DNA of 64,000 nt from Candidatus Pacearchaeota archaeon (GTDB lineage: Archaea; Nanobdellota; Nanobdellia; Pacearchaeales; GW2011-AR1), in contig JAGVWX010000018.1 in assembly GCA_018304105.1 (NCBI GenBank), positions 13,336 through 77,335 on the forward strand, written 5' to 3'. Both the position numbers and the translations under genes were made by a program. The notes under the pieces are model-generated. The model made no database searches, was not told the origin of the DNA, and saw only the letters and a list, made by a program, of their open reading frames with translations. Positions within the stretch are counted from its first letter, which is position 1. The number at the start of each line of letters is the position of its first letter. Positions 1-36,548 of this stretch are shown one piece after another.

Positions 1-1
1 T

Positions 2-2494
2 ACTTTCGCGGCTACTGCGCATTGGGAATGCAAGGCGGGATGCAATTGCGTAGACGGGACTCCTCCGAAAGGCGCGAAGGGAGAATGGACTAATGTTTAT
101 CCGTCGCAAAAACTTGCGCAACAGTCGCAGGACATTTGCGTGAGCTTAGGAGATTGCGGGAAGAAAGCAAACTACAAAGGTGAGGGAGGAATTTCATTTA
201 ATTCTGGATACAAATTCAAGATAAACGCTTATGACGGAATGCCAAAAGAAGAGCCGGAAAAAAAGCCGAGGGAAGTTTCAAGACCGATACTTTTTGGAGT
301 TGATGATTCAAAGCCAATTCCAGGAAAATATATTGACGCAGATTATGGGGGTTTGTTTGGTGAAGTTACTGACGGAGATTCTGGCGGAGGCGGAGATGAA
401 GGAGAAGAAAGCGGGGGAGTTGGACCTGGAGCCCCAAGCTTCAAGCCTGCTGACACAATGACTGCTTCGCTTGCATTGGGCGGGGTTACTGGAGCGACTG
501 CACTTGGTATGGGTATTGCGATGAAAGCTGGAGCGTTTACTACAACAACCACAACCACAATCCCTGGTGCTGGAACGATCGCTCCAACTTATGTTCAAAT
601 AGAAGGCTCATGGTTGGTAGATAAAAGTGGGGTAGCTGCTACTCAACCAGCTACGACTACCACTACTTCTGTATCTCCAACGGCTGTTGCGTTTCAAGCA
701 GCATCAATGGGCGCAGCAATTGGAGCAGCAGTTGTCTTACTCCTTGTGGGAATTTCTGGAATTGGGGCAGGTGTTGGAACTGGAGGAACAATTGCTTATG
801 GGGCTGGGGGAGCAATTGGTGGTGCAATGATTGGAACGACTTGGGCAGCTAGCTCTGCAGCATCAGCAGTTGCCACACAGGCTGCTGGACAAGGAACAGC
901 AACGGCTTCACAAATAGCAATGAATACTTTTGCGTCCGCACACCCAGCATTTATGGGGGCTATAAAAGTATTGGGCCCTGTTGTCATGATAATCGTCATC
1001 GCAGACATAATCGTGCAATGGATGGCGGGAGTTGGGGACATTAAAACAGTCGAAGCGGTGTTTGAATGTGGGTTATGGCAGCCGCCGAAAGGAAGCGAGA
1101 CATCATGCGATAAGTGCGGGGAAGATGGATTGCCTTGCAGTAGATACTCATGCGAGAGCCTTGGGAAAGATTGCGAGTTTGCAGGAGAAAGCGAAGGAGT
1201 TCAGGGAGAAGAAGGAACTAATTTATGCATTTACAATCCAAGAAATGACGTAAGCGGGCCGATAATAACTAATATTACAAAAGAAGCTTTGACAAATGGT
1301 TTTGAATATGCTAACGAGGAACTGGGAAAGGCAAGCTCGAGTTTTGAAATAGAAAAGAAAGATGCTGATGGAAAATGTGTAAATCAAATGGAATCTTTCG
1401 GATTCGGGTTTGAAATTAACGAGCACGGCGAATGCAAATATTCGTATGAGCAAGACAAGAACTTTAGCGAGATGACTCAGTTCGGAAACAACCTTCTTTC
1501 CAAAAAGCATTCGGATGTCTTTTCCATGACAGAAGTTCCTTTTGAAGGAGATGAAAAGAAAGACGTTACGATGTACATAAGATGCAGAGATTACAGTTCG
1601 GGGGAAGAAGGAGGAAATATCGGAGCAGAGAATTTCGTGAAGTTCTGCATTGACCCTGTTGACTTGACTCCGCCAGTTGTTGTGAGCAGTGACGATGGAA
1701 GGCTGCTAAAACACGGAATTAAGAATTATACAATAAGAGTTGAGTTTAACGAAGATGTCAGCGAGGCGCGGCTAGGATTTACAGACGCACCTTACGATGA
1801 ATTAGAATATGCAATGACATGCAGCGGAAAGGTCTGTTCTGTTGATGTGCCTCTAAATCCTGGAACGAACAATTACTACGTTAAGGCAAAGGACTTGAAA
1901 GGAAATGTAAATGAGCAAGGCACAAAAATAACAATTGTAGAGAGCGCACAAAAGTTGGTGATTTCATCGGTTTCACCTGATAATGAAACAATAGAAACTG
2001 GAGATGCAGCGACTTCAGTAGATATGGAAATTACAACCGAAGGAGGTTATGATGGAACGGCAAGCTGCACATTTTCAATTAATAACGGATTAAGTGAATT
2101 TTTCAAAGAAACTGGGGGGGAAACACATAAACAAACATTTAGCAGATTAACTCCTGGAACTTATAATTTTGAATTTTTGTGCGTTGATAAGGCTAGCAAT
2201 GAAGCGAGTGAAAAGACAAAATTAGTTATCAAAAGAGATTCTGTCTATCCTGAAATTACAAGAGTTTATGATGAGTCGGGGACCTTGACGGTTATAACAA
2301 AAGAAGACGCGACATGCAGTTACACGAACGCAAATTGCAACTTTAACTCTGATGAAAGCAGTTTAATGGATGGAAGCGGAGCGATTCACACAACTTCCTT
2401 GGATTATGATGTTGAATATTTCATTAAATGCAGAGATAAGCATGGAAACGAGCCAGGCGAGTGCAGCATTGTAGTTAAAGGAAGTGAATTTTGA
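2..2494 (+). CDS. Large Cys-rich / Gly-zipper TM / Ig-like surface protein, 5'-partial. Appears to be an in-frame fusion of a paralog of the 3693..5636 family with a paralog of 6305..8740
   Basis: Frame 2 is open from base 2, so the track start at 140 is an internal GTG. The first ~60 residues (HWECKAGCNC...ICVSLGDCGKKANYKGEGG...GYKF) align with the C-terminus of the 3693..5636 product (DWKCIKNCEC...LCMAIGDCGPKVNIAGQSG...GYKI). The rest is colinear with 6305..8740: Gly/Ala/Thr-rich TM block, FECGLWQPP...PCSRYSCESLGKDCE motif and a conserved C-terminal domain. Confidence 0.6.
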   Translation, partial: TFAATAHWECKAGCNCVDGTPPKGAKGEWTNVYPSQKLAQQSQDICVSLGDCGKKANYKGEGGISFNSGYKFKINAYDGMPKEEPEKKPREVSRPILFGVDDSKPIPGKYIDADYGGLFGEVTDGDSGGGGDEGEESGGVGPGAPSFKPADTMTASLALGGVTGATALGMGIAMKAGAFTTTTTTTIPGAGTIAPTYVQIEGSWLVDKSGVAATQPATTTTTSVSPTAVAFQAASMGAAIGAAVVLLLVGISGIGAGVGTGGTIAYGAGGAIGGAMIGTTWAASSAASAVATQAAGQGTATASQIAMNTFASAHPAFMGAIKVLGPVVMIIVIADIIVQWMAGVGDIKTVEAVFECGLWQPPKGSETSCDKCGEDGLPCSRYSCESLGKDCEFAGESEGVQGEEGTNLCIYNPRNDVSGPIITNITKEALTNGFEYANEELGKASSSFEIEKKDADGKCVNQMESFGFGFEINEHGECKYSYEQDKNFSEMTQFGNNLLSKKHSDVFSMTEVPFEGDEKKDVTMYIRCRDYSSGEEGGNIGAENFVKFCIDPVDLTPPVVVSSDDGRLLKHGIKNYTIRVEFNEDVSEARLGFTDAPYDELEYAMTCSGKVCSVDVPLNPGTNNYYVKAKDLKGNVNEQGTKITIVESAQKLVISSVSPDNETIETGDAATSVDMEITTEGGYDGTASCTFSINNGLSEFFKETGGETHKQTFSRLTPGTYNFEFLCVDKASNEASEKTKLVIKRDSVYPEITRVYDESGTLTVITKEDATCSYTNANCNFNSDESSLMDGSGAIHTTSLDYDVEYFIKCRDKHGNEPGECSIVVKGSEF

Positions 2495-2535
2495 GCAACA
2501 AAAACAATTATAAACAAATATCTCATAAGGAGAAT

Positions 2536-3360
2536 ATGAAAAAGAGGAGAACAGAAGTTCCCACGATTTCCATTTCAATGAACATGGCTGAAATGAAAAA
2601 AGGAGGGCAGATAACTGCTTACATTATTGTGGCAATTGTTATTGTGGTTTTCGGAGTGCTAATCTACTTTTTGTATCCGAAAATAAGCGAGATAATTGCG
2701 GGAGATACGGAACCTAGCGATTATATGCGGACGTGCATTCAGCCTGAATTGGACAGAGGACTTGAGCTAATTTCAAAGCAAGGAGGTTACATCAATCCAG
2801 AAGGGTATATTGAGTATCGGAGCGTTCCGATAAAATATCTTTGTTACACTTCGAGATATTATGTTCCCTGCTATGTACAGCAGCCGCTTTTGGTTGCGCA
2901 TGTTGAAAAAGAACTCCAAGATTTGTTGAAGAGCAAAGCAGAAGAATGCGCTGGAGAATTGAAAGATTACTATCAAACCAGAGGATATCAAGTTACTGGA
3001 GGAAATAGCGCGGATGTCGAGGTTTCGATTGCGCCGAAAAGAATTGATGTTCAAATTGATTCGCCTATGACGTTCACGAAGGAAACGACCCAAGAGTTTC
3101 AGACATTTAGGTTTGCTAAGTCAAGCGAGCTCTACACTTTGCTGATGACTGCAATGAGCATAATTGATTTTGAATCGACTTATGGGGACTCGGAAGTTAC
3201 TATTTATATGCAGTACTATCCAGAGCTGCAGCTTAGGAAGATGAAGTTGATGGACGGCTCTAAAATCTACAGTATAAAAAACGTTAAAACCTCTGAAACT
3301 TTCACTTTTGCGTCAAGAAGTTTGGCGTGGCCCGGAGGACTTGGACTGAAAGCAACATGA
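2536..3360 (+). CDS. Secreted/anchored protein with a class III (prepilin-like) signal; start ambiguous (2491 TTG, 2536, 2578-2593 ATGs)
   Basis: aaggag precedes the ATG at 2536. The internal MAEMKKGG-QITAYIIVAIVIVVFGVLIYF resembles an archaeal type IV pilin leader: short basic leader, Gly, then a hydrophobic helix. It lies between the two surface-module copies. Confidence 0.55.
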   Translation: MKKRRTEVPTISISMNMAEMKKGGQITAYIIVAIVIVVFGVLIYFLYPKISEIIAGDTEPSDYMRTCIQPELDRGLELISKQGGYINPEGYIEYRSVPIKYLCYTSRYYVPCYVQQPLLVAHVEKELQDLLKSKAEECAGELKDYYQTRGYQVTGGNSADVEVSIAPKRIDVQIDSPMTFTKETTQEFQTFRFAKSSELYTLLMTAMSIIDFESTYGDSEVTIYMQYYPELQLRKMKLMDGSKIYSIKNVKTSETFTFASRSLAWPGGLGLKAT

Positions 3361-3430
3361 AAGAGACAAACACGGTAAATAAGGAAAAGAGATACGATGG
3401 ATTTGCGATTGCGAGTTTTGTGCGAGTTTT

Positions 3431-3691
3431 GTGCTCGGACTGATATCTATTGCTCTGGTTTTAGGTATTTTTATTAATTTTAGGATGCTGTCAGGAGTTA
3501 TTTTATTCTCGCCAATTTCAGCTTTATTATCACTAATATTTGGAATTATTGCTTTAGTGAGAATTAAAAGAAATGAAAATAAGAAAGGAATGCTATTTGC
3601 TATCTTCGGCATGTTATTATCTATTTTTATCTTTTCTGTGGTTTTTGTGGTTCTTGTGATATTAAATTCATTGAGCGGTATAATTAGTTAA
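3431..3691 (+). CDS. Small multi-pass membrane protein (DUF4190-like)
   Basis: GTG start; hydrophobic helices with IFGIIALVRIKRNENKKG between them; an 11-nt tandem duplication overlaps the start. Confidence 0.45.
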   Translation: MLGLISIALVLGIFINFRMLSGVILFSPISALLSLIFGIIALVRIKRNENKKGMLFAIFGMLLSIFIFSVVFVVLVILNSLSGIIS

Positions 3692-3692
3692 C

Positions 3693-5636
3693 ATGAAAAA
3701 CAACAAAAAAATCAGCTCTGGGATTGGTTTGTTAGTCTTGACTTTAATGACAGTTGTTGTTTTTTCTGGGGCTGTTTATGCTGGAGAAAAAGTTGGGACA
3801 ACTGATGTGACTGTTTGCTGCCAGAAGACAAACTCGGGGTTGAATTGCCAGGATGTTTTGGAAGAAGAGTGCGCGAGCGAGTCTGAATTCGCGCTGCCGA
3901 CCGCATGCTCGTCAACAGGTCCTTGCGACCCTGGATATTGCTATGACGATGATGAAGGAACTTGCTTAGATAATGTTCCGAAAATGGTTTGCAATGAAGA
4001 AGGAGGAATATGGTCTTCTGAAAAGCCCGCTGCTTGCGGGTTGGGGTGCTGCATTCTTGGAGACCAAGCGTCATTTGTAACGCTTGTTAGATGCAAGAGA
4101 CTTTCGAGTTATTACGGGCTTAATATAAATTACAATCCAGATATTCAGAACGAAGCGCAGTGCATTCTTGCAGCGAAATCTGATGAAAGAGGAGCATGCG
4201 TGTTTGAAGAAGAGTTTGAACAGACATGCAAGATGACGACAAGGTCGCAATGCACTGCCGATATTGTTTCTGATACAACAACTTCTGATACAACAACTTC
4301 TGATACAACAACTTCTGATACAACAACTTCTGATACGACAACGACTGCTACAACAACTAGCACAGCAACGGCTACAACAACTGAAGGCACATCAGGAACC
4401 ACAACATCTCAGACGAGCACCGAAACGGACAGCACTGGAATATTGCAAAGTCCCGATGGATGCACAGTTATAGATGATAAAATAAAGTTCTGCCCGAAGA
4501 TGCTGTGTTCCGCGCCCGAGCTTGACACGAACTGCGGGAAGAGCGAGGATACAACTTGCATAGAAGGAAAAGAAGAAGTTTATTTCAAAGACACATGCGG
4601 AAATCCTGCTAATGTTTATGATGCTGCAAAAATAAGGGACGACAATTATTGGACTTATTTGGTTGATAAGGCAGAAGCGTGCAGAGCGGGAGACGCGAAT
4701 ATTAATTCGCAGACTTGCGGAAATTGCAATTATCTTCTTGGAAGTTTCTGCTCGGCAACTAATTCTGAGACAACTAAGCCAACTTACGGCGATAATATCT
4801 GCATAGATTTGAATTGCCCTGCTTCGGACATGACTAATGGGGAGGCAAAGCTCCATGGGGAAAGCTGGTGCGGATTTGACACGAACAGGGATTTTACTTT
4901 CCAGGAGACGACGCAGGATGCATTCACGCAGTTATTTGATGAGGCGCTGAGAAATGTCAAGTCAAAAGTTCCGATAAATTCAAATTTTCTTGGAGGAGAT
5001 GTTCCTGTTGGAAGCAAGTTTTATAGATACATCTGTTCGCATGGAGAAGTAATTGTTGAACCGTGCGCAGATTTCAGGCAGGAAGAATGCATTGAGAATA
5101 ACGTTGCAGGATACAGCGAGGCGGCGTGCAGAGTAAACAGATGGCAGGACTGCACTTCGATATTTAAGAAATTAGATTGCGAGAACTCTGACAGGAGAGA
5201 TTGCATTTGGATGGATGGAATTGAATATACATTAATGGGAGGAATTGCGAACGGCTCCACGATTGATAAAACATCTTTGAGCGCGGCGAAAGGAGAACTG
5301 GCGAAGATTAAGACTGGAGAAAGAGAGCTTGGAGCGTGCGTTCCGAAGATTCCTCCTGGATTGAAATTCTGGGGAACTGAAGAAGGAGATAATGCTGAAG
5401 CATCTGGAATTTGCTCGCAAGCGAATGCTGTATGCCCGGTAACTTACGAGAAAGGGTTGACTGGGGGAGATTGGAAGTGCATAAAGAATTGTGAATGCTT
5501 GGACCAGGCAAACCAGCTGAAGAGAGTGCAATTGTGCATGGCTATCGGAGATTGCGGGCCAAAAGTTAACATTGCCGGCCAATCCGGAAGAAAAGCAGGA
5601 TATAAGATTTTTGAAGAGGAATTGAAGAAGAAGTAA
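3693..5636 (+). CDS. Secreted Cys-rich protein with a Thr-rich mucin-like linker
   Basis: Signal peptide MKNNKKISSGIGLLVLTLMTVVVFSGAVYA, dozens of Cys, SDTTT x5 linker. The C-terminal GDCG...GYK module is shared with the first residues of the window. Confidence 0.8.
   Translation: MKNNKKISSGIGLLVLTLMTVVVFSGAVYAGEKVGTTDVTVCCQKTNSGLNCQDVLEEECASESEFALPTACSSTGPCDPGYCYDDDEGTCLDNVPKMVCNEEGGIWSSEKPAACGLGCCILGDQASFVTLVRCKRLSSYYGLNINYNPDIQNEAQCILAAKSDERGACVFEEEFEQTCKMTTRSQCTADIVSDTTTSDTTTSDTTTSDTTTSDTTTTATTTSTATATTTEGTSGTTTSQTSTETDSTGILQSPDGCTVIDDKIKFCPKMLCSAPELDTNCGKSEDTTCIEGKEEVYFKDTCGNPANVYDAAKIRDDNYWTYLVDKAEACRAGDANINSQTCGNCNYLLGSFCSATNSETTKPTYGDNICIDLNCPASDMTNGEAKLHGESWCGFDTNRDFTFQETTQDAFTQLFDEALRNVKSKVPINSNFLGGDVPVGSKFYRYICSHGEVIVEPCADFRQEECIENNVAGYSEAACRVNRWQDCTSIFKKLDCENSDRRDCIWMDGIEYTLMGGIANGSTIDKTSLSAAKGELAKIKTGERELGACVPKIPPGLKFWGTEEGDNAEASGICSQANAVCPVTYEKGLTGGDWKCIKNCECLDQANQLKRVQLCMAIGDCGPKVNIAGQSGRKAGYKIFEEELKKK
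4269..4343 (+). repeat. 15-nt tandem repeat (tctgatacaacaact x4 plus one variant) encoding (SDTTT)5
   Basis: Direct reading of lines 4261-4340. Confidence 0.9.
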
Positions 5637-5637
5637 A

Positions 5638-6012
5638 ATGAAAGATGAAACAAAAAAATGGATTGAACAAGCAGAAGCGGACTTGAAGACCGCGAGAAAT
5701 AGTCTAGCAAGCAAGGATTTCTATGCTTCGAGTTTTTGGGCTCAGCAGGCCGTTGAGAAAATTTTAAAAGCGTTCATCATGAAGAAAGAAAATAAGCTAA
5801 TCAAGATGCATGATTTAGTTATTCTGGGAAGAAAAGCTAAATTGCCAATTGAACTTTTATCAAAGTGCGAAAGGCTTTCAAAAGCGTACATTGAATCAAG
5901 ATATGGCCTTTTGGGAGGAGAAATTCCTGCCGAAAAATTCAAACAGGCAGATGCTGAAAATTTTTTAAACATAGCGGAGGAAATTACCATATGGCTAAAA
6001 AAGAAGATTTGA
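5638..6012 (+). CDS. HEPN domain protein (toxin-like partner of MNT)
   Basis: ~120-aa all-helical protein, KWIEQAEADLKTA...AQQAVEKILKA...ESRYG, overlapping a minimal nucleotidyltransferase gene. Confidence 0.7.
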   Translation: MKDETKKWIEQAEADLKTARNSLASKDFYASSFWAQQAVEKILKAFIMKKENKLIKMHDLVILGRKAKLPIELLSKCERLSKAYIESRYGLLGGEIPAEKFKQADAENFLNIAEEITIWLKKKI

Positions 6013-6308
6013 AAATAGTGAAAGAATTCAAGAAGAAAATATCTGAAAAGATACCTGTAAAAAAAGTAATTTTATTTGGCAGTAGAGCTACAGGAAAGAC
6101 TCATGAATGGAGCGATTATGATATTATTGTGGTAAGTGATGAATTTGAAGGGGAAAAAACATTTGAGCGAGGCATAGGATTTTATGATTACTGGGAGCAT
6201 GATTATCCTGTTGATTTTCTATGCTACACGATTGCGGAGTTTAATAGATTGAAAAAGAAGGCGACAATTGTAAAAGAAGCGATGAAAGAAGGTATTGAAA
6301 TAAAATGA
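5991..6308 (+). CDS. Minimal nucleotidyltransferase (MNT) antitoxin-like protein
   Basis: ILFGSRATGKTHEWSDYDIIVV matches the GSx(n)DxD NTase motif; 22-nt overlap with the HEPN gene. Confidence 0.75.
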   Translation: MAKKEDLKIVKEFKKKISEKIPVKKVILFGSRATGKTHEWSDYDIIVVSDEFEGEKTFERGIGFYDYWEHDYPVDFLCYTIAEFNRLKKKATIVKEAMKEGIEIK

Positions 6309-8740
6309 AACAAGGAAAAAGAAAATTAATTGCGTTTGGAGAAATGTTTTTGTTAGTGAGCATGAGCTTTGCGGTGGCGTTTATGCTGAGCGAAAGTATT
6401 GGGGGAAGAGTGGACGCTGACGCTATGTCTGACGCATTTGCGGCTAGCGCACAAACGGGAGGAGGACCGCCTGTCCAAACTGGTGGCGGAGGACTTGTTG
6501 GTAATTTTAATCCTAACCTTCCTACTCAAAATGCTCTTGCGCCTCCGCCTGCGACGCTGACTCCTGCAGGTGCGGGGACTTTTGGTGGGGCGCCCGGCGG
6601 CGTTGCTCCTCCTGATGGACCTCTTAGTATCGGCACTACTGTTGGAGGCGCATCGGTTGTGCCTGCCGGAACACAAATAGTTGCTGGTTCAGTAATTGGA
6701 CCGGGTTCTGTCTTGCAGAGCGGTACAGCAACATTATCAAATGGTGTGGTGCTTCAGGCTGGACAGGCCGTCCCAAATGGCATGACTGCTACTCTTGCTT
6801 CTAATGGTGTGATGGGTGGAAGTGGGGGGTCTGTGAGTGGCGCTGGTTCGACTTTACAAACATTTACTGGTGGACCTGCTGCGGGCGGTGGTGCAGGCGC
6901 GGACTTAATGGGTTCAATATTTGGGGGAAAAGCATTTGGGGCAGGGGTTGGTGGGGCATTATTCTCGGGATTGGTTTGGGGGGCGATTGCTGGGGGAATT
7001 GCATATTTTGTTGCAGGAATGTTTGGGCAGACTAAGAAACAAGCAGAGTCTATTGGACTGGGCGTCGGGGCTGGAGCATTTGTTGGCTCGAGCTTGTATC
7101 TTTATGGGTCGAATTATGTGCTTGCGTATCCTGGAGCCCAGCTTGCGTTTTACAATACTGCGTTCGGGGCTGCGATTATAGGAATTGGAGTTGCTGCTGT
7201 CATAATCATTATGACTTACAAGAAAGAAAAGAAAGAATTAGTGAGATTTGAGTGCCAAGCGTGGGAGCCGCCGACTGGAGGTTCGAGATGTGATGACTGC
7301 AACAATAATCCATTGCTGCCTTGCTCGGAATACAGATGCAGAAGCCTTGGACAGGCTTGCGAGATTGCCAACCCCGGAACAACGGAAGAGAAATGTTTTT
7401 GGAAAAGCAAAGGAGATACTTCAGCTCCGCATATGGTTCCTTGGGATGAAGCGCTTAGCCCCGATGGATTAAAATATTATCCTGATGCTGAAATCAGTCC
7501 GCCGAACAGAGGTTTTGTGATTAAGGATAGCGCCGGAAGTGATACATGTTTGCCCGCTTTCAGCAATCTTGAATTTGGCGTGAAGACGGACGAGCCGGCT
7601 CAATGCAGAGTTGATTACAGCGCGAAGAACACGTATAGTGAAATGCAGTTTTTGCTTGGGGAGTCAGGCTTATTCCTTGAGGAACACACACAAAGATTGA
7701 AAGTCCCGAACACTCAGCAAGAAGGGGATGTGATTCCAGAGATAGGAGTTGATGGAACATTCAAGTTGTGGGTGAGATGCATTGACTCGAATGGAAATGG
7801 AGAAGACAGTGCGGCAGTTGCTTTCAGTTTCTGTGTTGACAAAGGTCCTGACACGACGCAACCAACTATTGAAGGAAGCTCGATTGAATCTGGAATGCCT
7901 GTGCAGTTTGATGTGGATGCTGTGCCGATTGAAATTTATGTAAACGAGCCGAGCGAATGCAAGTGGAGCAGACTTGACAAGGTGTACAGCGATATGGAAA
8001 ACGTAATGGAATGCGGAACAGATAATTATCAGATTAACGCTGACTTGAATTATGTTTGCAATTCTCAATTAACTGGAGTTGTGAACAGGCAGGACAACTG
8101 GTTTTATTTCAGATGCGAGGACACTGCGGGGAATGTTATGGTAACGAGCTATCCTCTGCTGTTGAAAGGAACTGAAGAATTAGTAATCACGAAGACCGGA
8201 CCGACTGGAGAATTTACCGGAAGCACGAACGTAATCCCTGTAACATTAGAAGTTGAAACTGCTCATGGCGCGAATAATGGGGTGGCTGCATGTTCGTTCT
8301 CTAACAGCGAGAATGGAAGATTTATCATAATGGATAATACAGAAAATAGTTACATACATAACCAGACTCTTGACTTGAGCGCAGGACAGCAGGCTTATTA
8401 CTTCAGGTGCATTGATGCTGGAGGAAATCTTGCGACAAGCAACACGAGCTTCAAAGTTACAACAGACACAACCGACCCATTGGTAACGAGAGTTTTCAAA
8501 GATGGAAATTCACTGAAGGTAATAACAAGCGAAGAAGCGAAGTGCTATTACTCGAATACGAATTGCGATTACAATCTTGCAGATGGCCTTGTAATGCTTT
8601 ATGAAGATGCAACAAAGAGAAACGTTCACACGGTAGAATGGAGCAAGACAGCCACATATTACATAAAGTGCGAGGACCTTCGAGGAAATCAGCCAAGTCC
8701 GAATGAATGCCAGATTGTTGCGAAAGCGAGCGAGATGTAA
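6305..8740 (+). CDS. Large surface protein: signal anchor, Gly/Ala/Pro low-complexity region, glycine-zipper TM bundle, juxtamembrane Cys motif, Ig-like domains
   Basis: Paralog of 140..2494: FECQAWEPPTGGSRCDDCNNNPLLPCSEYRCRSLGQACE versus FECGLWQPPKGSETSCDKCGEDGLPCSRYSCESLGKDCE. The C-terminal ...YYIKCEDLRGNQPSPNEC matches ...YFIKCRDKHGNEPGEC. Confidence 0.8.
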   Translation: MKQGKRKLIAFGEMFLLVSMSFAVAFMLSESIGGRVDADAMSDAFAASAQTGGGPPVQTGGGGLVGNFNPNLPTQNALAPPPATLTPAGAGTFGGAPGGVAPPDGPLSIGTTVGGASVVPAGTQIVAGSVIGPGSVLQSGTATLSNGVVLQAGQAVPNGMTATLASNGVMGGSGGSVSGAGSTLQTFTGGPAAGGGAGADLMGSIFGGKAFGAGVGGALFSGLVWGAIAGGIAYFVAGMFGQTKKQAESIGLGVGAGAFVGSSLYLYGSNYVLAYPGAQLAFYNTAFGAAIIGIGVAAVIIIMTYKKEKKELVRFECQAWEPPTGGSRCDDCNNNPLLPCSEYRCRSLGQACEIANPGTTEEKCFWKSKGDTSAPHMVPWDEALSPDGLKYYPDAEISPPNRGFVIKDSAGSDTCLPAFSNLEFGVKTDEPAQCRVDYSAKNTYSEMQFLLGESGLFLEEHTQRLKVPNTQQEGDVIPEIGVDGTFKLWVRCIDSNGNGEDSAAVAFSFCVDKGPDTTQPTIEGSSIESGMPVQFDVDAVPIEIYVNEPSECKWSRLDKVYSDMENVMECGTDNYQINADLNYVCNSQLTGVVNRQDNWFYFRCEDTAGNVMVTSYPLLLKGTEELVITKTGPTGEFTGSTNVIPVTLEVETAHGANNGVAACSFSNSENGRFIIMDNTENSYIHNQTLDLSAGQQAYYFRCIDAGGNLATSNTSFKVTTDTTDPLVTRVFKDGNSLKVITSEEAKCYYSNTNCDYNLADGLVMLYEDATKRNVHTVEWSKTATYYIKCEDLRGNQPSPNECQIVAKASEM

Positions 8741-8773: not shown

Positions 8774-9514
8774 CTATTTTCCAGCGGTTTCCTTATGAAG
8801 ATTATCCTTCTGGGTTTTAACCGATGTATCTAATGTTCTGGGAGTTACAGTGATTGGAGTATAATTAAGTATTACGCCTCTTACGTGCCAGAACCCCGTA
8901 TAAGAACCCTCTTCCAATGTGCCGATATTTACTGCATGTGAATACGGGCCGTTGATTGGGCTGGATGTCTGGATATTTGGGTCTAGTGTTATTTGAGAGC
9001 CATCTGAATAGTAAAGCCGAAAGCGGAGAAGTTCCCCTTGATAATTAAGTACCGTTGAAACGAACTCAATATCTTCTCCAACAGAGAAAGAAGATTTCCT
9101 TCCAGTAACTTCTGTTGGTTCTGCAAGCCCATTGTTATTTGAATCAATCCATTGATTGCAAGCAAAAAATGCATTTCCTAAAGACTGTCCAGAATTATTC
9201 TGATAAACGGTTTCATCGTTTGGGCGAGAATTCATTTGGTCAATCTGCCTTTGAGTATTCAACCTGTATTGCTCGTTTTGCCTTCTTTGCTGCTCGCTAG
9301 ATGCATGGCTTCCCATTCCCTGCATTGCTAATCCAAAAAGACCCCCGTTTAACATTCCGAGGACTTGTACAGTCTTGCCTGGGTCGTCAACTCTTCTTTC
9401 TCCAATGTATCTTCCTTGAGAATCGTATGCTGGAGCGAAAGTTGTGCAACCGTTCATTGTTGGAGCTACAGCCATTAATCCCGTTAGGCCTAGTGTTGTT
9501 AATCTTCTTCCCAT
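8774..9514 (-). CDS. Putative lipoprotein, function unknown
   Basis: N-terminus MGRRLTTLGLTGLMAVAPTMNGC is lipobox-like; Gln/Asn-rich linker followed by a beta-rich domain. Confidence 0.55.
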   Translation of the reverse strand: MGRRLTTLGLTGLMAVAPTMNGCTTFAPAYDSQGRYIGERRVDDPGKTVQVLGMLNGGLFGLAMQGMGSHASSEQQRRQNEQYRLNTQRQIDQMNSRPNDETVYQNNSGQSLGNAFFACNQWIDSNNNGLAEPTEVTGRKSSFSVGEDIEFVSTVLNYQGELLRFRLYYSDGSQITLDPNIQTSSPINGPYSHAVNIGTLEEGSYTGFWHVRGVILNYTPITVTPRTLDTSVKTQKDNLHKETAGK

Positions 9515-25305: not shown

Positions 25306-25867
25306 ATTGAATTTAAGTTTTTATTTGATATAAATCTTGCGATGACTTCAAATCTGTTAGAAAAGATAAAAATCAAAATAAAGCGATTGCGTAACAATTT
25401 CATAATTCCACTTTTGCTGCGGCAAAATCAAAATAAAGCAAGTAGGAGAGAAAAGCAGAGCTTTTCATTCGACCGCCAATAAATTGTCAGTCGAAAGGCA
25501 ATCGTCTCCGGAATTGGAAGCGATTTTATTTTTAATTAAGGCTTTTAGTAGTTGAGTGCTTAAATTCTCGTTGCCTTGAATCTTACACACCAACTCTATC
25601 AACGTCATCTTCTATGACGGCCTTAGTTGTCTCGTTTTGCGGACGGCTTCGTTCTTAGATGCTTTCAGAACTTATCCGCTCACTGCGTAGCTACCCGGCC
25701 TGCTCATAACAACCGGTACACCAGAGGCAGCCAACCCCCGTTCCTCTCGTACTAAAGGGTCGTTCCACTCAGACAACAGCACTCCTAGTAGATATCATAC
25801 AAACTGTCTCACGTACTTGACCTCTATCTTTCGATAAAGAGTGGACTATACCTTCATCCTTTCTTGT

Positions 25868-25985
25868 AAATTGCCTAAATTATCATACGCTCGCTCCGCT
25901 CGCTTAAAATTATTTAACCAACTTTTGAAAGTTAAGTTATGATAACTTAGCGAATGAAATGAGCTACAATAATATTGGCTATTTT
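25868..25985. repeat. Intron-borne repeat module, copy 1
   Basis: aaattgcctaaattatcatacgctcgctccgctcgct...ttttgaaagttaagttatgataacttagcgaatgaaatgagc...ttggctatttt; contains internal inverted repeats. Confidence 0.85.
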
Positions 25986-26215
25986 ACGAAAGGAGATCGG
26001 CGTGTTAACATTATTTCTAACGTTCTCGGATTTTTCACATAATCTGCTTTGGGTTATTTTTATTATGCGCCTTGATTTTAATCAAGGATTCGAAGTCTCT
26101 ACGGGGATAACAGTTAATTGGAAGAAGGTTTCACCGATATGAGCCGATTTTATTTTTCGTAAAATTACTTTTACGCAACGCCGTGTTTTCTGGTAATGTT
26201 TGTTTTACAATTTAA

Positions 26216-26329
26216 AAATTGCCTAAATTATCTGCTCGCTCCGCTCGATTTAATATTATCTAACCAACCTTTTCAGATTAAGTTATGATAATTAAGCGAA
26301 TGAAATGAGCTTAACAACTTGGCTATTTT
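26216..26329. repeat. Intron-borne repeat module, copy 2
   Basis: aaattgcctaaattatctgctcgctccgctcga...ttttcagattaagttatgataattaagcgaatgaaatgagc...ttggctatttt; roughly 85% identical to copy 1 by eye. Confidence 0.85.
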
Positions 26330-26999
26330 TCTCTGTAATTTTTATGCGCCGTCTAAAGAATCGCTGCTATTTGACGTTCTTAACCCAGCTAACGATCCCT
26401 TTTAATGCGTGAACTCCGACACCCTTGGTACCTTGTGCAGTACCAGGATAGGAAGAGCCGACAGCGACGCACCAAACCGCGCCGTCAATATGGACTATCG
26501 GGCGCGACCAGCCAATTATCCTTGGGGTACCTTTTCTGTCACGTGGGGTCGCTGAACCAGACTTTCATCTCTGCGTTCTTTGCTGTGCGAAACACAGTCA
26601 GTTAAGCTTTTGCTTCTGCACTCAACGTTAGATTTCCAACCTAACTGAGCTTAACTTTGGGCCCTCCAGATATCTTTTCTGGAGGGTGCCGCCCCAGCCA
26701 AACTGCCCGCCTGATGCTGTCCCCTCTAAGAGAGTGAGCAATGTTCAACGGAATGGGTAGTATTACAAGATCGCTCCGTCTTCGCCTAAGCTAGACATCG
26801 ATGCTCCTACCTATGCTATGCATTTCACTAAACACCGCAACAACAAGTTGCAGTAAAGGTCCACAAGGTCTCAGCTTCCCACTAGGAGTCACCGGCTTGT
26901 TCACCGGTAAAGTGAGTTCAGAAGGTTCTGGCTAGGGACAGTGACTACCTCGTTAAACCATTCATGCACGTCGCCATTCAGACGACAAGGCATTACGCT

Positions 27000-27463
27000 C
27001 ATTTTTGTTAACTTCATATCGCTATGAAGATCGGACTTTATCTTAATAATTAATTAAAATTATTTCGAGCATGAAGTCTCTGAGGGTTTTTCTTTTTCAA
27101 GAAATCTTCCCTGCTGATTGTCCGCACCGAACGAATTTTTACTAACGATAAATTGCTTAAATAATTTGCTCCGCATCTGTCTTTGACAAGATGCTCCGCA
27201 TAACTAAAATTATCTCGACTAACTTTGAAAGTTAAGTTTGGATAATTAGCGAGCGAAGCGAGCAATATCAATTTCGGCTATTTTATTTATCATTGAGTAT
27301 CGTCGGATTCCCGGATGTTCCAGCATATAGCTCGATTTTCTCTATTGGTTTAACTTTTAACTTCAACATTATTGTTACTGTTTATTTCTTTTTTCCTAAC
27401 TTGTGACTTAGAGCGTTACTCATCTTGCGACGAATACCGTAAGGCAGTTTAGTTGACTATTCA
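27000..27463 (-). other. 23S rRNA intron 2 (~460 nt, no credible ORF)
   Basis: The conserved ...CUAACUAUGAGGCUCUUAAGGU is separated from (A)GCGUAAUGCCUUGUCG..., which is contiguous in other 23S rRNAs. Confidence 0.7.
27203..27295. repeat. Intron-borne repeat module, copy 3 (left arm diverged or absent)
   Basis: ctaaaattatc...aactttgaaagttaagtttggataattagcgagcgaagcgagc...tttcggctatttt. Confidence 0.7.
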
Positions 27464-29546
27464 ACCTTAAGAGCCTCATAGTTAGGCCCGCCGTTTTACG
27501 GGGCTTAGGTCCATTGAACTGAACTTTGACACACCGCAACTGGGCAGGTCTCACTGAGTATACTAGTCCTTTAGGATTTGCACTCAGCTACGTTTTTGAT
27601 AAACAGTCGGGCAGTCCTTGTTACTGCGATCTACGAACGCGCTTAATGAATCAAACACGTCTATAGACACCCCTTATACCGAAGATACGGGGCCAATATG
27701 CCGAGTTCCCTTAACCAGTTTATCCTTACACGCCTTAGCCTTCTCAGCTAGAGCACCTGTGTCGGTTCTAGGTACGGCTGCTGCAATCCATAAAGCACAT
27801 ACTTTTCATGGGCTCCTGGAGTCAGCAAATTCATCAAGCATTCTTGCGCATCTATGCATTACGCTCAACGCCTTTCTACTTGATTGGAGCTCTCGCCCCT
27901 CTACTTATCCGAAAGCGATATGTGCGGAAAATTGCAACAGTTCTGGAATATTAACCAGAAATCCATTCGCCACAGCCAGTTAAGGTGTGACTTAGGTGCC
28001 GACTAACCCTTGGTTAAACGATAGTGCCAAGGAAACCTTGCTCTTTCGGCGTTGCCCGTTCTCAGGGCAATTAGATCTTACTTACACCACGATTCTCGTT
28101 GGATCCCGCTCCATGCACTCTCTCGAGAACACTTCTGCGCAGAATCCACGCCTGCCTACCAGAACACTCTTTCGAGTGCCTCTAAAGTATCGGTAATATG
28201 CTTAGCCCCGTCCATTTTCCCCGCCTCAAACCTCAATAGGTGAGCTGTTACGCTTTCTTTGAATGATGGCTGCTTCTGGGCCTACATCCCTAGTGTCTCA
28301 GGTTTAAGACTTAGTTTGTTACACTTAGCATATCTTTTGGGACCTTAACTTTAGTCTCGCTTGTTCGCGTCTCGGAACAGAACCTTACGCCCTGCCCCCC
28401 ATTCCTACTGTATACAGCCAACAGGTTCTGAGTTGGAAGAAGTCCCGTAATCTTGCGATCCTGCGGACCTTATCCGTACTTTACCCCGCTGGCAAGCACA
28501 GTAAGACTATACTACGGCATATTTCGACAGGAACCAGCCATTGCCGAATTAGATTGGCTTTTCACCCCTATTCCCAAATCATCCAAGCACATGCACATAG
28601 CACTGGTTCGGTCCTCCATTCTCCTTTCGAAAAACTTCGACCTGCTCAGGAATAGATCATCCGGCTTCGGGTCGTATCCATGTGACTAGCGCCCTTTCAG
28701 ACTCGCTTTCGCTATGGCTTCAATTTAACCTCGCCACATAGATACACTCCGTGGCCCATTTTTCAAAACGTACGTTACAACACCGTAATGCCGTAACCAT
28801 ATGTAACTGATAGATTTCAAGTCTTTTAACCCCCTATTATGGGTACTTTTCAGCTTTCCCTCGCGGTACTAAGTTCGCTATCGGACTTGGATTAATATTT
28901 AGGGTTGGCAGTTAATCCTGCCGTATTCAGACATCCATTCTAGGAAGCCCTACTCTGTCGGAGCATGCCATATTGTCTTCGAGTACGGGGCTATCACCCT
29001 TTGAAGCGTGACGTTCCAGTCAACTTCCCCTCGACAACTTAGGCTCAACTCCACCACATCTCTAACTTCCTTTCGAAAGCAGATTCGGTTTGCCCTATTC
29101 CCGTTTCGCTCGCTGCTATTCAGGGAATCTCTATTGATTTCTTTTCCTACCGGTACTAAGATGTTTCAATTCCCGGCGTGTGTCTCCCTCTCGGGATTTT
29201 CAAAGAACACGTTTTCGCATTCGGAGATCCTTGGTTCAAAGCTCGCATGCAGCTCCCCAAGGCTTATCGCAGCTTGCCACGTCCTTCATCACAATCCAAA
29301 CCAAGCTATCCATCTAACAGCTTAAATAAAATAAAATCTTGATAAAAAACTGATTTAGTTTTTTTCCTTCCGATTCCTAATTGTGGAAACTATTGCCTTT
29401 CCTACTTGCTTCATTGAATATAACCTCTGCATGATATTCTACCGTCGGTAAAACACCATTATCACTAAATAAGTGAAAATGATTTATGACATTATGATTT
29501 ACGATTTTGGTTTCCTCCGAAGAGTAAATTGTTAGATTAACGAGGG

Positions 29547-36154: not shown

Positions 36155-36548
36155 AGAAATTTCTTTATCTCTTACTATTTAAACTTTATTATACTTCGGT
36201 TGATTCCCTTCGCCAATTTAATTAAAAATTAGTTTACTATGAAATCAGCTGACTTCCTTCTTTCAATAATTATTGAAAGTTAGGATCTCCTTGGGTCACT
36301 TTATTTTCTTTTCCATCCATCCAATTAACGTTTTAGTTAGCTTCTTCATGTCACCGACCCATGCATGAATCGCTAACAATTAACTCTTACGAGCACGCCT
36401 CTCGACGTAGAGGCTGGATTTTGCTTTCGGCCCTTCAGCGTTCTTGTTACCAAGATATTTACGCCTGCCTTCTGCTACACTCTTCTAGTCAAGAAGAGGG
36501 ACAGATTTTAACTGCCTAGATAATAAAGCTGCCAAGCACATTTATTTC
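35873..36548 (-). other. 16S rRNA intron inside the ...CUCACCG / CCCGUCAAACC... (1400-region) sequence
   Basis: The conserved ACACCGCCCGUCA equivalent is split: ...GCUCUCACCG ends at about 36549 and (G)CCCGUCAAACC resumes at about 35872. Confidence 0.75.

What the first reader, a model, noticed from the sequence alone, without database searches (positions are those of the whole stretch)
1..8740. Duplicated two-family Cys-rich surface module, fused into one reading frame in copy 1
Two protein families occur twice in the same order.

- Family A (3693..5636) has a signal peptide, more than 40 Cys, a mucin-like Thr linker and a C-terminal W.C...C.C...GDCG.K.N..G..G...GYK module.
- Family B (6305..8740 and 140..2494) has a Gly/Ala/Pro low-complexity stretch, a glycine-zipper-like TM bundle, a juxtamembrane Cys motif and several Ig-like domains with conserved Cys pairs and a conserved C-terminal domain.

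At the left edge of the window the family-A C-terminal module reads straight through, with no stop, into the family-B paralog. The frame is open from base 2, and the GTG at 140 lies inside the A module. Copy 1 has no signal anchor of its own after the junction, whereas copy 2 of family B does. A natural fusion of this kind argues that A and B act together.

A pilin-like gene and a small membrane gene sit between the copies. No enzymatic motif is visible in either family. In a small-genome archaeon of this type, the set could be a cell-surface attachment, host-contact or pore apparatus; that interpretation is inference.
Basis: partly seen in the sequence, partly recalled or inferred. Interest (0 to 1): 0.8.

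Follow-up and report, generated by a model that had tools for sequence, protein, structure and literature searches.

The report
Duplicated pilin–Cys-rich–Ig-stalk surface module
A tiny-genome (DPANN) archaeon carries two ancient tandem copies of an undescribed three-gene cell-surface module, and the fusion of two of its proteins into one in the first copy is real and conserved in dozens of related genomes, marking a core envelope or contact structure whose function is unknown.

Summary

**Fusion is real.** Window 2..2494 is the last 830 codons of a 1,379-aa gene. An independent, 99.2 %-identical contig (L001) supplies the missing 5' end with its own signal anchor. The same A–B fusion occurs in 39 of 40 related genomes where the junction is visible.

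**The unit has three genes, not two.**
- P: a ~255-aa protein with a type-IV-pilin-like signal.
- A: a secreted protein with 45 Cys and no fold or sequence relatives.
- B: a Gly-rich membrane hairpin, a 7-Cys knot and four disulfide-type Ig-like domains.

The order P1–A1B1–P2–A2–B2 is conserved across Pacearchaeota and Woesearchaeota. The duplication predates their radiation.

- Fused homologues with no transmembrane segment show that the A and B ectodomains both face outward.
- The proteins are about as conserved as aspartyl-tRNA synthetase and lie in core chromosome.

**Function** is inferred only. It is most likely a constitutive membrane-tethered surface contact or attachment complex. An S-layer or envelope scaffold is the main rival. 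A pore or fusogen has no support. No Pfam, NCBIfam or PDB family matches.

The parts
2..2494 (+). 3' part (codons 550-1379) of the copy-1 fused gene A1B1; the gene starts 1,646 nt upstream of the window
   Evidence: The frame has no stop. L001 is 99.2 % identical and gives the full 1,379-aa ORF with the signal anchor MERRMKKFSVLFEIFLVISIVIITPY.
2..226 (+). C-terminal module of family A (W.C...C.C...GDCG...GYK) inside the fused gene
   Evidence: Aligns to the A2 C-terminus. The whole A1 part matches A2.
683..1045 (+). Gly/Ala-rich hydrophobic helices of copy 1 (membrane hairpin)
   Evidence: Aligned to the B2 helices; coordinates.
1058..2491 (+). B1 ectodomain: Cys knot plus four Ig-like domains
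   Evidence: HMM famB 506 bits.
2506..2518 (+). Conserved TATA-box-like element (AATTATAAACAAA), promoter of copy 2
   Evidence: Invariant in an 8-genome alignment. The exact ATTATAAA lies upstream of P2 in 23 of 51 loci, against a background of 0.018, and 17 of those sit exactly 21 nt before the ATG.
2536..3360 (+). P2, pilin-like protein (class III-type signal ...MKKGGQ|ITAYIIVAIVIVV). The start at 2536 is inferred from promoter geometry; the later ATGs at 2578, 2584 and 2593 are possible.
   Evidence: Family alignment with invariant G-Q and a hydrophobic helix. A FlaFind-type motif is present in 71 of 91 family members against 8 of 769 controls. Paralog of P1.
3357..3691 (+). Small DUF4190-like membrane gene, frameshifted here by an 11-bp tandem duplication at 3410-3431. 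It is lineage-specific and not part of the core module.
   Evidence: Intact in L001. Absent between P2 and A2 in most loci.
3693..5636 (+). A2: secreted or anchored 647-aa protein with 45 Cys, two well-predicted domains and a Thr-rich linker
4268..4358 (+). 15-nt tandem repeat encoding the TSDTT linker of A2
5638..6012 (+). HEPN-domain protein (toxin half of a HEPN-MNT pair), an insertion between A2 and B2
   Evidence: Pfam PF05168, E 1.6e-24.
5991..6308 (+). Minimal nucleotidyltransferase (MNT, antitoxin half); its stop overlaps the B2 start (ATGA)
   Evidence: Pfam PF01909, E 8.4e-16. PADLOC PDC-S09, E 3.5e-10. Junction bases.
6305..8740 (+). B2: 811-aa membrane-anchored stalk protein
6950..7225 (+). 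B2 Gly-zipper-like helices (aa 215-304), read as a membrane hairpin
   Evidence: AF2 helices 215-239, 244-274 and 286-304. Conservation. Topology argument.
7244..8737 (+). B2 ectodomain: 7-Cys knot (aa 317-364) and four Ig-like domains (about aa 375-515, 518-625, 626-722 and 725-811)
   Evidence: pLDDT above 90. Foldseek matches to Ig/Fn3 arrays, E 1e-13 to 1e-8. 17 of 21 Cys are invariant and the other 4 near-invariant in 119 homologues; C552 and C604 are lost together.
8774..9514 (-). Lipoprotein-like gene whose homologues lie in the A2-B2 gap in other genomes (loosely associated)

Best explanation
**Shown**
- The region holds two ancient paralogous copies of a three-gene envelope module that is specific to Pacearchaeota and Woesearchaeota-type DPANN archaea.
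- Each unit encodes three proteins:
  - P, a ~255-aa globular protein with a type-IV-pilin-like (class III) signal.
  - A, a ~550-aa exported domain with about 45 Cys and no detectable fold relatives.
  - B, with a variable Gly/Ala/Pro tether, a Gly-rich membrane hairpin, a 7-Cys knot and four Ig-like domains that carry B-strand/F-strand Cys pairs.
- In copy 1, A and B are one polypeptide: signal anchor, A, linker, hairpin, B ectodomain.
- In copy 2 they are separate genes, and B2 has acquired its own N-terminal anchor.

**Inferred**
- A and the B ectodomain both lie outside the cell and form one complex. B is a membrane-tethered stalk of about 4 Ig domains, A is the disulfide-knotted head, and P joins through its pilin-type N-terminal helix.
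- The two paralogous complexes are both needed.
- The assembly is a constitutive surface contact or attachment structure that binds a conserved ligand on a partner cell or surface. It is operationally comparable to a minor-pilin-plus-large-tip-protein module, but it is permanently tethered to the membrane.
For: **The fusion is real and old**
- L001 reads through the junction.
- 39 loci hold a single A+B ORF.
- About 60 of the best 150 family-A cluster representatives exceed 1,000 aa.
- Ten full-length fused homologues were read directly.

**The triplet was duplicated as a whole**
- In 31 complete loci, every P1, A1 and B1 best-hits the same paralog in another genome, and so does every copy-2 protein.
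- Some contigs carry three units.

**P is pilin-like**
- [KR]GQ plus a hydrophobic helix is invariant in the alignment.
- The motif test is met by 71 of 91 family members against 8 of 769 controls.

**Both ectodomains face outward**
- Fused homologues L057, P0308, P0310, P0323, P0304 and P0075 have an N-terminal signal peptide and no other hydrophobic segment.
- The fused protein in L064 has exactly two transmembrane segments.
- 17 of 21 Cys are invariant and 4 near-invariant, arranged as Ig B/F-strand pairs, and C552 and C604 are lost together in 5 of 5 cases.
- Cys makes up 3.8 % of B and 8.2 % of A, against 0.86 % in cytoplasmic controls. N-glycosylation sequons are depleted: observed/expected is 0.34 for A, 0.40 for P, 0.77 for B and 1.08 for controls.

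**Fold**
- The B ectodomain matches Ig/Fn3 arrays of adhesion molecules.

**Operon structure**
- Start and stop codons overlap or abut.
- Copy 2 has its own conserved TATA element.

**Envelope neighbourhood in other genomes**
- B2 is followed by four small genes with a [KR]G-plus-hydrophobic-helix N-terminus and then by an S_layer_C protein.
Against: - No experiment bears on function, and there is no homology to any characterised adhesin.
- The module is conserved at housekeeping level. Median identity between genomes is 55 % for A2 and 48 % for B2, against 48.5 % for AspRS in the same genome pairs. Host-specific adhesins normally diverge faster.
- No pilus ATPase, platform protein or prepilin peptidase was seen in the window or within 10 kb in the related loci.
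- The window's own P2 has KGGQ, which deviates from the canonical motif.
- The positive-inside rule alone would place the B ectodomain in the cytoplasm, because KKEKKE follows the last helix.
- Simple hydropathy counts of transmembrane segments are inconsistent.
Confidence: 0.4

Rival explanations
1. Envelope scaffold. B and AB are the membrane-anchored pillars, and A the distal part, that hold or space the S-layer. This would be a SlaB/SlaA-like two-component arrangement, a structural part of the cell's own wall rather than a device for contacting other cells.
For: - Conservation is at housekeeping level and inheritance is vertical, in core chromosome.
- The module is found throughout the lineage.
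- Four tandem Ig domains would span roughly an archaeal pseudoperiplasm.
- In 16 related loci an S_layer_C (PF05124) protein is encoded about 3 kb downstream of B2.
- Foldseek hits include the Bacillus Sap S-layer.
Against: - There is no sequence or specific fold match to SlaA/SlaB or to S_layer_N/C.
- Sequons are depleted rather than enriched, unlike typical heavily glycosylated archaeal wall proteins.
- The pilin-like partner P has no counterpart in known S-layer systems.
- The S-layer-type gene is absent from this 64-kb window.
Confidence: 0.25
2. Bindosome-like capture complex. P (and A) act as surface binding proteins delivered by the class III signal pathway and held at the membrane by B, to scavenge a conserved nutrient such as lipid, nucleotide or cell-wall fragment.
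For: - In Sulfolobales, class III signals are used on globular extracellular binding proteins (established knowledge).
- P has a ~220-aa globular domain.
- Strong conservation fits a chemically constant ligand.
- DPANN genomes lack many biosynthetic pathways (PMC8204110).
Against: - No ABC transporter or permease genes are linked.
- There is no similarity to substrate-binding protein folds or families.
- This reading gives no explanation for the Ig stalk.
Confidence: 0.1
3. Pore, fusogen or cytoplasmic-bridge apparatus. The glycine-zipper helices oligomerise into a channel, or A acts as a fusexin-like fusogen, to exchange material with a host cell.
For: - The Gly-rich helices carry conserved small-xxx-small motifs.
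- A Cys-rich ectodomain followed by transmembrane helices is superficially fusexin-like.
- The organism has a DPANN lifestyle.
Against: - The A model (pLDDT 77, domains above 90) has no match to Fsx1, HAP2 or class II fusion proteins, or to anything else, in PDB or BFVD; all E values are at least 0.7.
- Several copy-1 homologues have lost the transmembrane hairpin entirely.
- The module is in core chromosome, not on a mobile element.
Confidence: 0.06
4. Artefact. The copy-1 fusion is an assembly or sequencing error (a missing stop or indel), or a decaying pseudogene.
For: - The window is cut inside the gene, so the fusion cannot be judged from the window alone.
- One related genome (UBA73, L002/L004) has copy 1 in two overlapping ORFs.
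Against: - An independent assembly has the same uninterrupted frame.
- The fusion is conserved in 39 loci from different studies and assemblers.
- Fused proteins make up a large share of family-A representatives.
- The linker carries conserved motifs.
Confidence: 0.01

Closest known systems
Bacterial type IV pilus minor-pilin plus tip-protein modules (fimU-pilVWXY1E; PilY1/PilC)
   Same: - Pilin-type signal proteins are encoded next to a large non-pilin surface protein.
- In about a quarter of related genomes, four small pilin-like genes follow B2 in fixed order.
   Different: - No sequence or fold homology.
- The signal is of the archaeal class III type.
- B and AB are integral membrane proteins with a hairpin anchor.
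- No assembly ATPase or platform gene is nearby.
- The module occurs in two or three paralogous copies.
Sulfolobales S-layer pair SlaA/SlaB
   Same: Adjacent genes for a large outer protein and a membrane-anchored beta-sandwich stalk, forming a constitutive envelope component.
   Different: - No homology.
- Cys-rich and depleted in sequons.
- SlaB is anchored by a single C-terminal transmembrane segment, whereas here a central hairpin or N-terminal anchor is used.
- A distinct S_layer_C-type gene exists in related genomes.
Archaeal fusexin Fsx1 / HAP2-type class II fusogens
   Same: An archaeal, Cys-rich exported ectodomain followed by transmembrane helices.
   Different: - Foldseek finds no similarity for A.
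- The module is not on an integrated mobile element.
- Conservation is universal and vertical.
Ig-array surface adhesins (Pfam Big_13; GhpA 'grappling hook'; cadherin or IgSF ectodomains)
   Same: - The B ectodomain is a string of four Ig-like beta-sandwiches.
- There is a sub-threshold Big_13 match.
   Different: - Big_13 scores are below the Pfam cut-off (18-20 bits against 27).
- Each domain carries its own conserved Cys pairs.
- The array is preceded by a unique 7-Cys knot and a Gly-rich membrane hairpin.
'Module 98' of Castelle et al. 2021 (PMC8204110): 51 protein families shared only by Pacearchaeota and Woesearchaeota, mostly of unknown function and predicted membrane-bound or extracellular
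   Same: Same taxonomic distribution and the same kind of protein. P, A and B are probably among these families (inference; family identifiers were not checked).
   Different: That study lists families only. The main-text passages I read and two full-text literature searches turned up no description of the gene order, the duplication, the fusion, the pilin-like partner or the topology.

Membership tests
Archaeal type IV pilin-like proteins (class III signal peptide), tested for P | A short basic N-terminus, a [KR]-[GA] cleavage motif, then a hydrophobic helix of about 20 residues (FlaFind pattern) | tested here: met
   G and Q are invariant and the helix is conserved. 71 of 91 P ORFs match against 8 of 769 control ORFs. 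The window's own P2 has KGGQ, which is slightly off-pattern.
Archaeal type IV pilin-like proteins (class III signal peptide), tested for P | Match to a curated pilin or archaellin family model, or to a solved pilin | tested here: not met
   No Pfam or NCBIfam hit. The best PDB profile hit to a pilin has E 1.3.
Archaeal type IV pilin-like proteins (class III signal peptide), tested for P | Processing by a prepilin peptidase (PibD/FlaK/EppA) and assembly by a PilB/PilC-type machine | not testable with these tools
   No such genes occur in the 64-kb window or within 10 kb in related loci. Whole genomes were not available.
Archaeal S-layer proteins (S_layer_N/S_layer_C; SlaA/SlaB) | Sequence or fold membership | tested here: not met
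   No Pfam hit for A or B and no PDB sequence hit. A has no fold hit. A different neighbouring protein in 16 loci does reach the S_layer_C threshold.
Fusexins / class II fusion proteins | Three-domain beta-rich class II fold | tested here: not met
   Foldseek of the A model against PDB (which I expect to hold solved fusexin/HAP2 and class II fusion structures; not checked here) and against BFVD gives no match with E below 0.7.
Bacterial Ig-like domain Big_13 (PF19077) | Score at or above the Pfam gathering threshold (27 bits) | tested here: not met
   19.8 and 18.2 bits. The fold class (Ig-like sandwich) is met. Some homologues carry a precomputed PF19077 hit.
HEPN-MNT type II toxin-antitoxin pair (the inserted genes at 5638..6308) | Adjacent or overlapping small genes with a HEPN domain and a minimal nucleotidyltransferase domain | tested here: met
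   PF05168, E 1.6e-24; PF01909, E 8.4e-16; 22-nt overlap. Toxicity and neutralisation were not tested.
Rosetta-stone (fusion-linked) interacting pair, tested for A and B | The same two families occur both as separate neighbouring genes and as one polypeptide in many genomes | tested here: met

The most novel reading that the evidence does not exclude
P–A–B is the conserved cell–cell contact organelle of Pacearchaeota and Woesearchaeota. It would be a previously unknown kind of archaeal surface machine: a pilin-primed, disulfide-knotted head of novel fold on an Ig stalk, held by a glycine-zipper membrane hairpin and built from two or three obligatorily co-existing paralogous complexes. Through it these ultra-small archaea would attach to, and possibly draw material from, their partners.
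Probability: 0.15. Interest if true: 0.85.

Novelty: new variant of a known kind. Interest (0 to 1): 0.6.

Why it matters
- Pacearchaeota and Woesearchaeota are among the most abundant uncultured archaea. How they hold on to partners or build their envelope is unknown.
- This module is lineage-wide. Family A alone has more than 1,400 clusters at 50 % identity.
- It is as conserved as a tRNA synthetase, clearly extracellular and genetically compact.
- These properties make it a concrete target for antibodies, cryo-ET, metaproteomics and heterologous expression.
- The A domain (pLDDT above 90 in two domains) has no relative in PDB or BFVD and is a candidate new fold.
- The conserved split-versus-fused paralog pair is a clean natural experiment on protein-complex evolution.

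Tried and rejected
1. **Fusexin or viral fusion-protein fold for A.** Foldseek against PDB and BFVD gave nothing.
2. **Sequence families.** Pfam, NCBIfam and PDB profile searches for P, A and B gave no significant hit. A 0.88 E-value hit to Hbl L1 is treated as chance.
3. **Cytoplasmic location of the B Ig-array.** Three AF2 helices and the K/R-rich segment after the last helix suggested it. It was rejected because six fused homologues have no transmembrane segment and one has two, and because of the Ig-type Cys pairs.
4. **Counting transmembrane segments.** Kyte-Doolittle and Hessa-type sums were threshold-dependent and inconsistent for the Gly-rich helices. I did not rely on them.
5. **Sequon density as a topology marker.** Sequons turned out depleted, not enriched, in the clearly exported A and P. 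The result is informative only as a shared trend.
6. **Pilus machinery or the downstream pilin-like and S-layer genes in the window.** None was found.
7. **The four small downstream genes of other genomes.** They mostly fail the strict FlaFind-type test, so I call them pilin-like only tentatively.
8. **Literature searches.** They found no description of this cluster.
Full report
**What is in the window**

Every gene described in this section lies on the + strand; an associated lipoprotein-like gene on the - strand is noted under "Noticed in passing".

| Window position | Feature | Evidence |
|---|---|---|
| 2..2494 | Open frame that enters the window already open | |
| about 2536..3360 | Pilin-like gene P2 | |
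| 3357..3691 | Small DUF4190-like membrane gene | |
| 3693..5636 | A2, 647 aa, 45 Cys | |
| 5638..6012 | HEPN gene, Pfam E 1.6e-24 | |
| 5991..6308 | Minimal nucleotidyltransferase gene, E 8.4e-16 | |
| 6305..8740 | B2, 811 aa | |

Starts and stops abut or overlap: the A2 stop is followed by the HEPN ATG two bases later, and the MNT stop and B2 start share ATGA.

The window is archaeal core chromosome. It carries unlinked 16S and 23S rRNA genes, a ribosomal-protein operon, SecY, the exosome, the proteasome and AspRS.

**Checking the observation**

- The first 75 codons of the open frame reproduce the C-terminal motif of A2, W.C...C.C...GDCG...GYK (E 3e-4).
- The rest of the frame is a paralog of B2: 27 % identity over 638 aa, E 1e-54.
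- The GTG at 140 lies inside the A motif, so it is an ORF-finder artefact.
- A protein 98 % identical to A2 led to contig L001 (ENA, 13.8 kb). L001 is 99.2 % identical to window 1..6958 and extends 6.3 kb upstream.
- In L001 the fused gene is complete at 1,379 aa. It has its own N-terminal signal anchor, a full A domain homologous to A2 (E 3e-36 and 3e-16) and the B part.
- The window therefore holds codons 550-1379 of this gene.
- The gene just upstream in L001 is a 255-aa paralog of P2 (31 % identity, E 2e-38).
- The repeated unit is therefore P–A–B, not A–B.

**How general it is**

- Family B gave 76 relatives and family A at least 788 in the word-indexed search. All are 'hypothetical' proteins from Nanoarchaeota, Pacearchaeota or Woesearchaeota MAGs.
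- A full HMM scan of 1.84 billion representatives found 1,615 family-A clusters, 1,423 of them at E ≤ 1e-10. About 60 of the best 150 exceed 1,000 aa and are therefore fused.
- A scan of species-representative genomes found 333 loci. The 80 that were fetched all have Pacearchaeota, Woesearchaeota, Nanoarchaeota or unclassified 'archaeon' titles.

Profile scanning of the 80 loci gave this breakdown:

| Pattern | Loci |
|---|---|
| Complete P-AB-P-A-B | 31 |
| The same pattern truncated by the locus edge | 15 |
| Copy 2 also fused (L074, L083) | 2 |
| An extra unit upstream (L053, L064) | 2 |
| Only B2 within reach | 26 |

- L084, a contig fetched separately and not one of the 80, also carries three units.
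- Copy 1 is a single ORF in 39 of the 40 loci where the junction is visible. The exception, UBA73, has two overlapping ORFs.
- In the 31 complete loci, every P1, A1 and B1 best-hits the same paralog in another genome, and likewise for copy 2. Median identity is 42-46 % within a paralog type between genomes and 30-34 % between the two types within a genome.
- The triplet was therefore duplicated before these lineages diverged, and both copies have been kept.

**Anatomy: P**

- P has an invariant G-Q preceded by K/R and followed by a hydrophobic helix.
- A FlaFind-type test is met by 71 of 91 family members against 8 of 769 control ORFs.
- No pilin Pfam model matches.

**Anatomy: A**

- The AF2 model has mean pLDDT 77. 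Two domains (aa 41-190 and 258-400) score above 90, and the Thr linker between them is disordered.
- It has no structural neighbour in PDB or BFVD; the best E values are 1.0 and 0.7.
- It has no PDB sequence relative.

**Anatomy: B**

- The AF2 model has mean pLDDT 79. It shows an anchor helix, a disordered Gly/Ala/Pro region, three Gly-rich helices, a small Cys-stabilised module and four beta-sandwich domains with pLDDT above 90.
- Foldseek returns only generic Ig/Fn3 arrays: PTP-delta, GhpA, NCAM, cadherins and the Sap S-layer.
- Of the 21 Cys of the ectodomain, 17 are invariant and 4 nearly invariant in 119 homologues.
- The Cys residues fall on the B-strand (..C[KRS][WVFY]S) and the F-strand (Y[YF][FI][RK]C.D..GN) of each domain. 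C552 and C604 are lost together in 5 of 5 cases.

**Topology**

Two lines of evidence first suggested a cytoplasmic Ig array: the three predicted helices and the K/R-rich stretch after the last one. The following evidence argues against that.

- Six distinct fused homologues (L057 copy 1, P0308, P0310, P0323, P0304, P0075) have an N-terminal signal peptide and no other hydrophobic segment.
- The fused protein of L064 has exactly two transmembrane segments separated by a polar loop.
- A is clearly exported (signal peptide, 8 % Cys), so the B ectodomain must be on the same, outer side, and the Gly-rich helices form a hairpin.
- High Cys content and a shared depletion of N-glycosylation sequons point the same way. 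Observed/expected is 0.34 for A, 0.40 for P, 0.77 for B and 1.08 for cytoplasmic controls.

This conclusion is an inference from homologues, not a measurement.

**Surroundings and regulation**

- A TATA-like element (AATTATAAACAAA, 2506-2518) follows the AB1 stop directly and lies 21 nt before the ATG at 2536.
- The 8-mer ATTATAAA occurs upstream of P2 in 23 of 51 loci, against a background of 0.018. In 17 of those it is at exactly this spacing.
- Copy 2 therefore has its own promoter and probably a leaderless mRNA.
- The distance between A2 and B2 varies from overlap to more than 7 kb, with a median of 1.6 kb. The gap holds different cargo in different genomes: HEPN-MNT pairs in six loci, a polyprenyl-phosphate glycosyltransferase-like membrane protein in six, and lipoproteins related to window 8774..9514(-).
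- In about 20 loci, B2 is followed at 0-25 bp by four small genes in fixed order, each with a [KR]G-plus-hydrophobic-helix N-terminus. In 16 loci an 875-aa protein that passes the Pfam S_layer_C threshold comes next. None of these is in the window.
- Flanking genes are housekeeping and syntenic, so this is not a mobile island.

**Conservation**

In the same genome pairs, median identities are:

| Protein | Median identity |
|---|---|
| A2 | 55 % |
| P2 | 48.5 % |
| B2 | 48 % |
| P1 | 44 % |
| A1 | 43 % |
| B1 | 37 % |
| AspRS | 48.5 % |

This is housekeeping-level constraint.

**Interpretation**

Shown:
- A lineage-specific, vertically inherited three-gene module that has been duplicated.
- Its A and B parts are linked by conserved fusion.
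- Its products are exported and membrane-tethered.

Inferred:
- A, B and P form one extracellular complex: Ig stalk, Cys-knotted head and pilin-type subunit.
- Both paralogous complexes are required.

I commit to a constitutive surface contact or attachment structure that binds a conserved ligand (confidence about 0.4). The grounds are the Ig-array-plus-head architecture, the pilin-like partner and the DPANN lifestyle.

The rivals, in order:
- An envelope scaffold or S-layer anchor (0.25). It is favoured by the high conservation and the nearby S-layer-type gene in relatives.
- A bindosome-like capture complex (0.1).
- A pore or fusogen (0.06). It is disfavoured by the lack of any fusogen fold and by homologues that have dropped the hairpin.
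- An assembly artefact. This is effectively excluded.

**Comparison with what is known**

- No curated family (Pfam, NCBIfam) and no solved structure covers P or A. B reaches only sub-threshold Big_13 scores.
- The closest published mention I found is the statement that 51 mostly uncharacterised families ('Module 98') are shared specifically by Pacearchaeota and Woesearchaeota and are often membrane-bound or extracellular (PMC8204110).
- The passages I read there, and two full-text literature searches, turned up no description of the gene order, triplet duplication, conserved fusion, pilin-like partner or outward topology.
- I rate it a new variant of a known kind, namely membrane-tethered Ig-stalk or pilin-associated surface complexes. 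There is a modest chance that it is a new kind of machine.

**Noticed in passing**

- The small membrane gene is frameshifted by an 11-bp duplication that is absent from L001.
- A HEPN-MNT pair is inserted between A2 and B2.
- The 23S rRNA gene contains a group I intron.
- Sequon depletion in the exported proteins is unexplained.

Noticed in passing
window 5638-6308: A HEPN plus minimal-nucleotidyltransferase (toxin-antitoxin type) gene pair is packed exactly between A2 and B2, sharing ATGA with the B2 start. The A2-B2 gap is a recurrent insertion site in related genomes, holding TA pairs, a glycosyltransferase-like membrane protein and lipoproteins. Gap length ranges from overlap to more than 7 kb.
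   Followed up: partly
window 3410-3431 (gene 3357-3691): An 11-bp tandem duplication (TGCGAGTTTTG) is absent from the 99 %-identical contig L001. It frameshifts the small DUF4190-like membrane gene, so this is either a strain-level pseudogene or a sequencing error.
   Followed up: yes
window 2506-2518 and ATG 2536: A conserved TATA-box-like element lies directly after the copy-1 stop, 21 nt before the first ATG of P2, and is conserved at the same spacing in many genomes. This implies a leaderless transcript. The window's P2 start region looks duplicated: MKKRR..., then 19 aa, then MKKGGQ.
   Followed up: partly
window 25525-29337 (-) and 36491-37874 (-): The 23S rRNA gene carries a group I intron (27012-27386) with no endonuclease ORF of at least 90 aa. 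The 16S and 23S genes are about 7 kb apart, with protein genes and tRNA-Ala between them.
   Followed up: partly
window 4268-4358: A 15-nt x 6.1 tandem repeat encodes the TSDTT units of the mucin-like linker in A2. Its length probably varies between strains.
   Followed up: no
window 8774-9514 (-): This lipoprotein-like gene (N-terminal ...NGC) has homologues in the A2-B2 gap, on the + strand, in other genomes. The association with B2 is loose but recurrent.
   Followed up: partly
families A, P and B across loci L004-L083: N-glycosylation sequons (N-x-S/T) are strongly depleted in the exported proteins. Observed/expected is 0.34 for A, 0.40 for P and 0.77 for B, against 1.08 for cytoplasmic controls. 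This is the opposite of typical archaeal surface proteins and is unexplained.
   Followed up: partly
L046 12876-18193 and about 20 other loci (downstream of B2): Four small genes in fixed order, each with a [KR]G-plus-hydrophobic-helix N-terminus, are followed by an 875-aa protein that passes the Pfam S_layer_C threshold. This looks like an envelope gene island in relatives. It is absent from this window.
   Followed up: partly
L057 3405-6749; proteins P0308, P0310, P0323, P0304, P0075: Variants of the fused copy-1 protein have lost the membrane hairpin and keep only an N-terminal signal peptide. The hairpin is therefore dispensable for at least one paralog.
   Followed up: yes
L084 (whole contig), L053, L064: Some lineages carry three tandem P-A-B units rather than two.
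   Followed up: partly
L002/L004 7257-8737 (-): In Pacearchaeota UBA73, a radical-SAM/SPASM gene and a methyltransferase gene sit on the opposite strand between A2 and B2. Copy 1 is split there into two overlapping ORFs.
   Followed up: no
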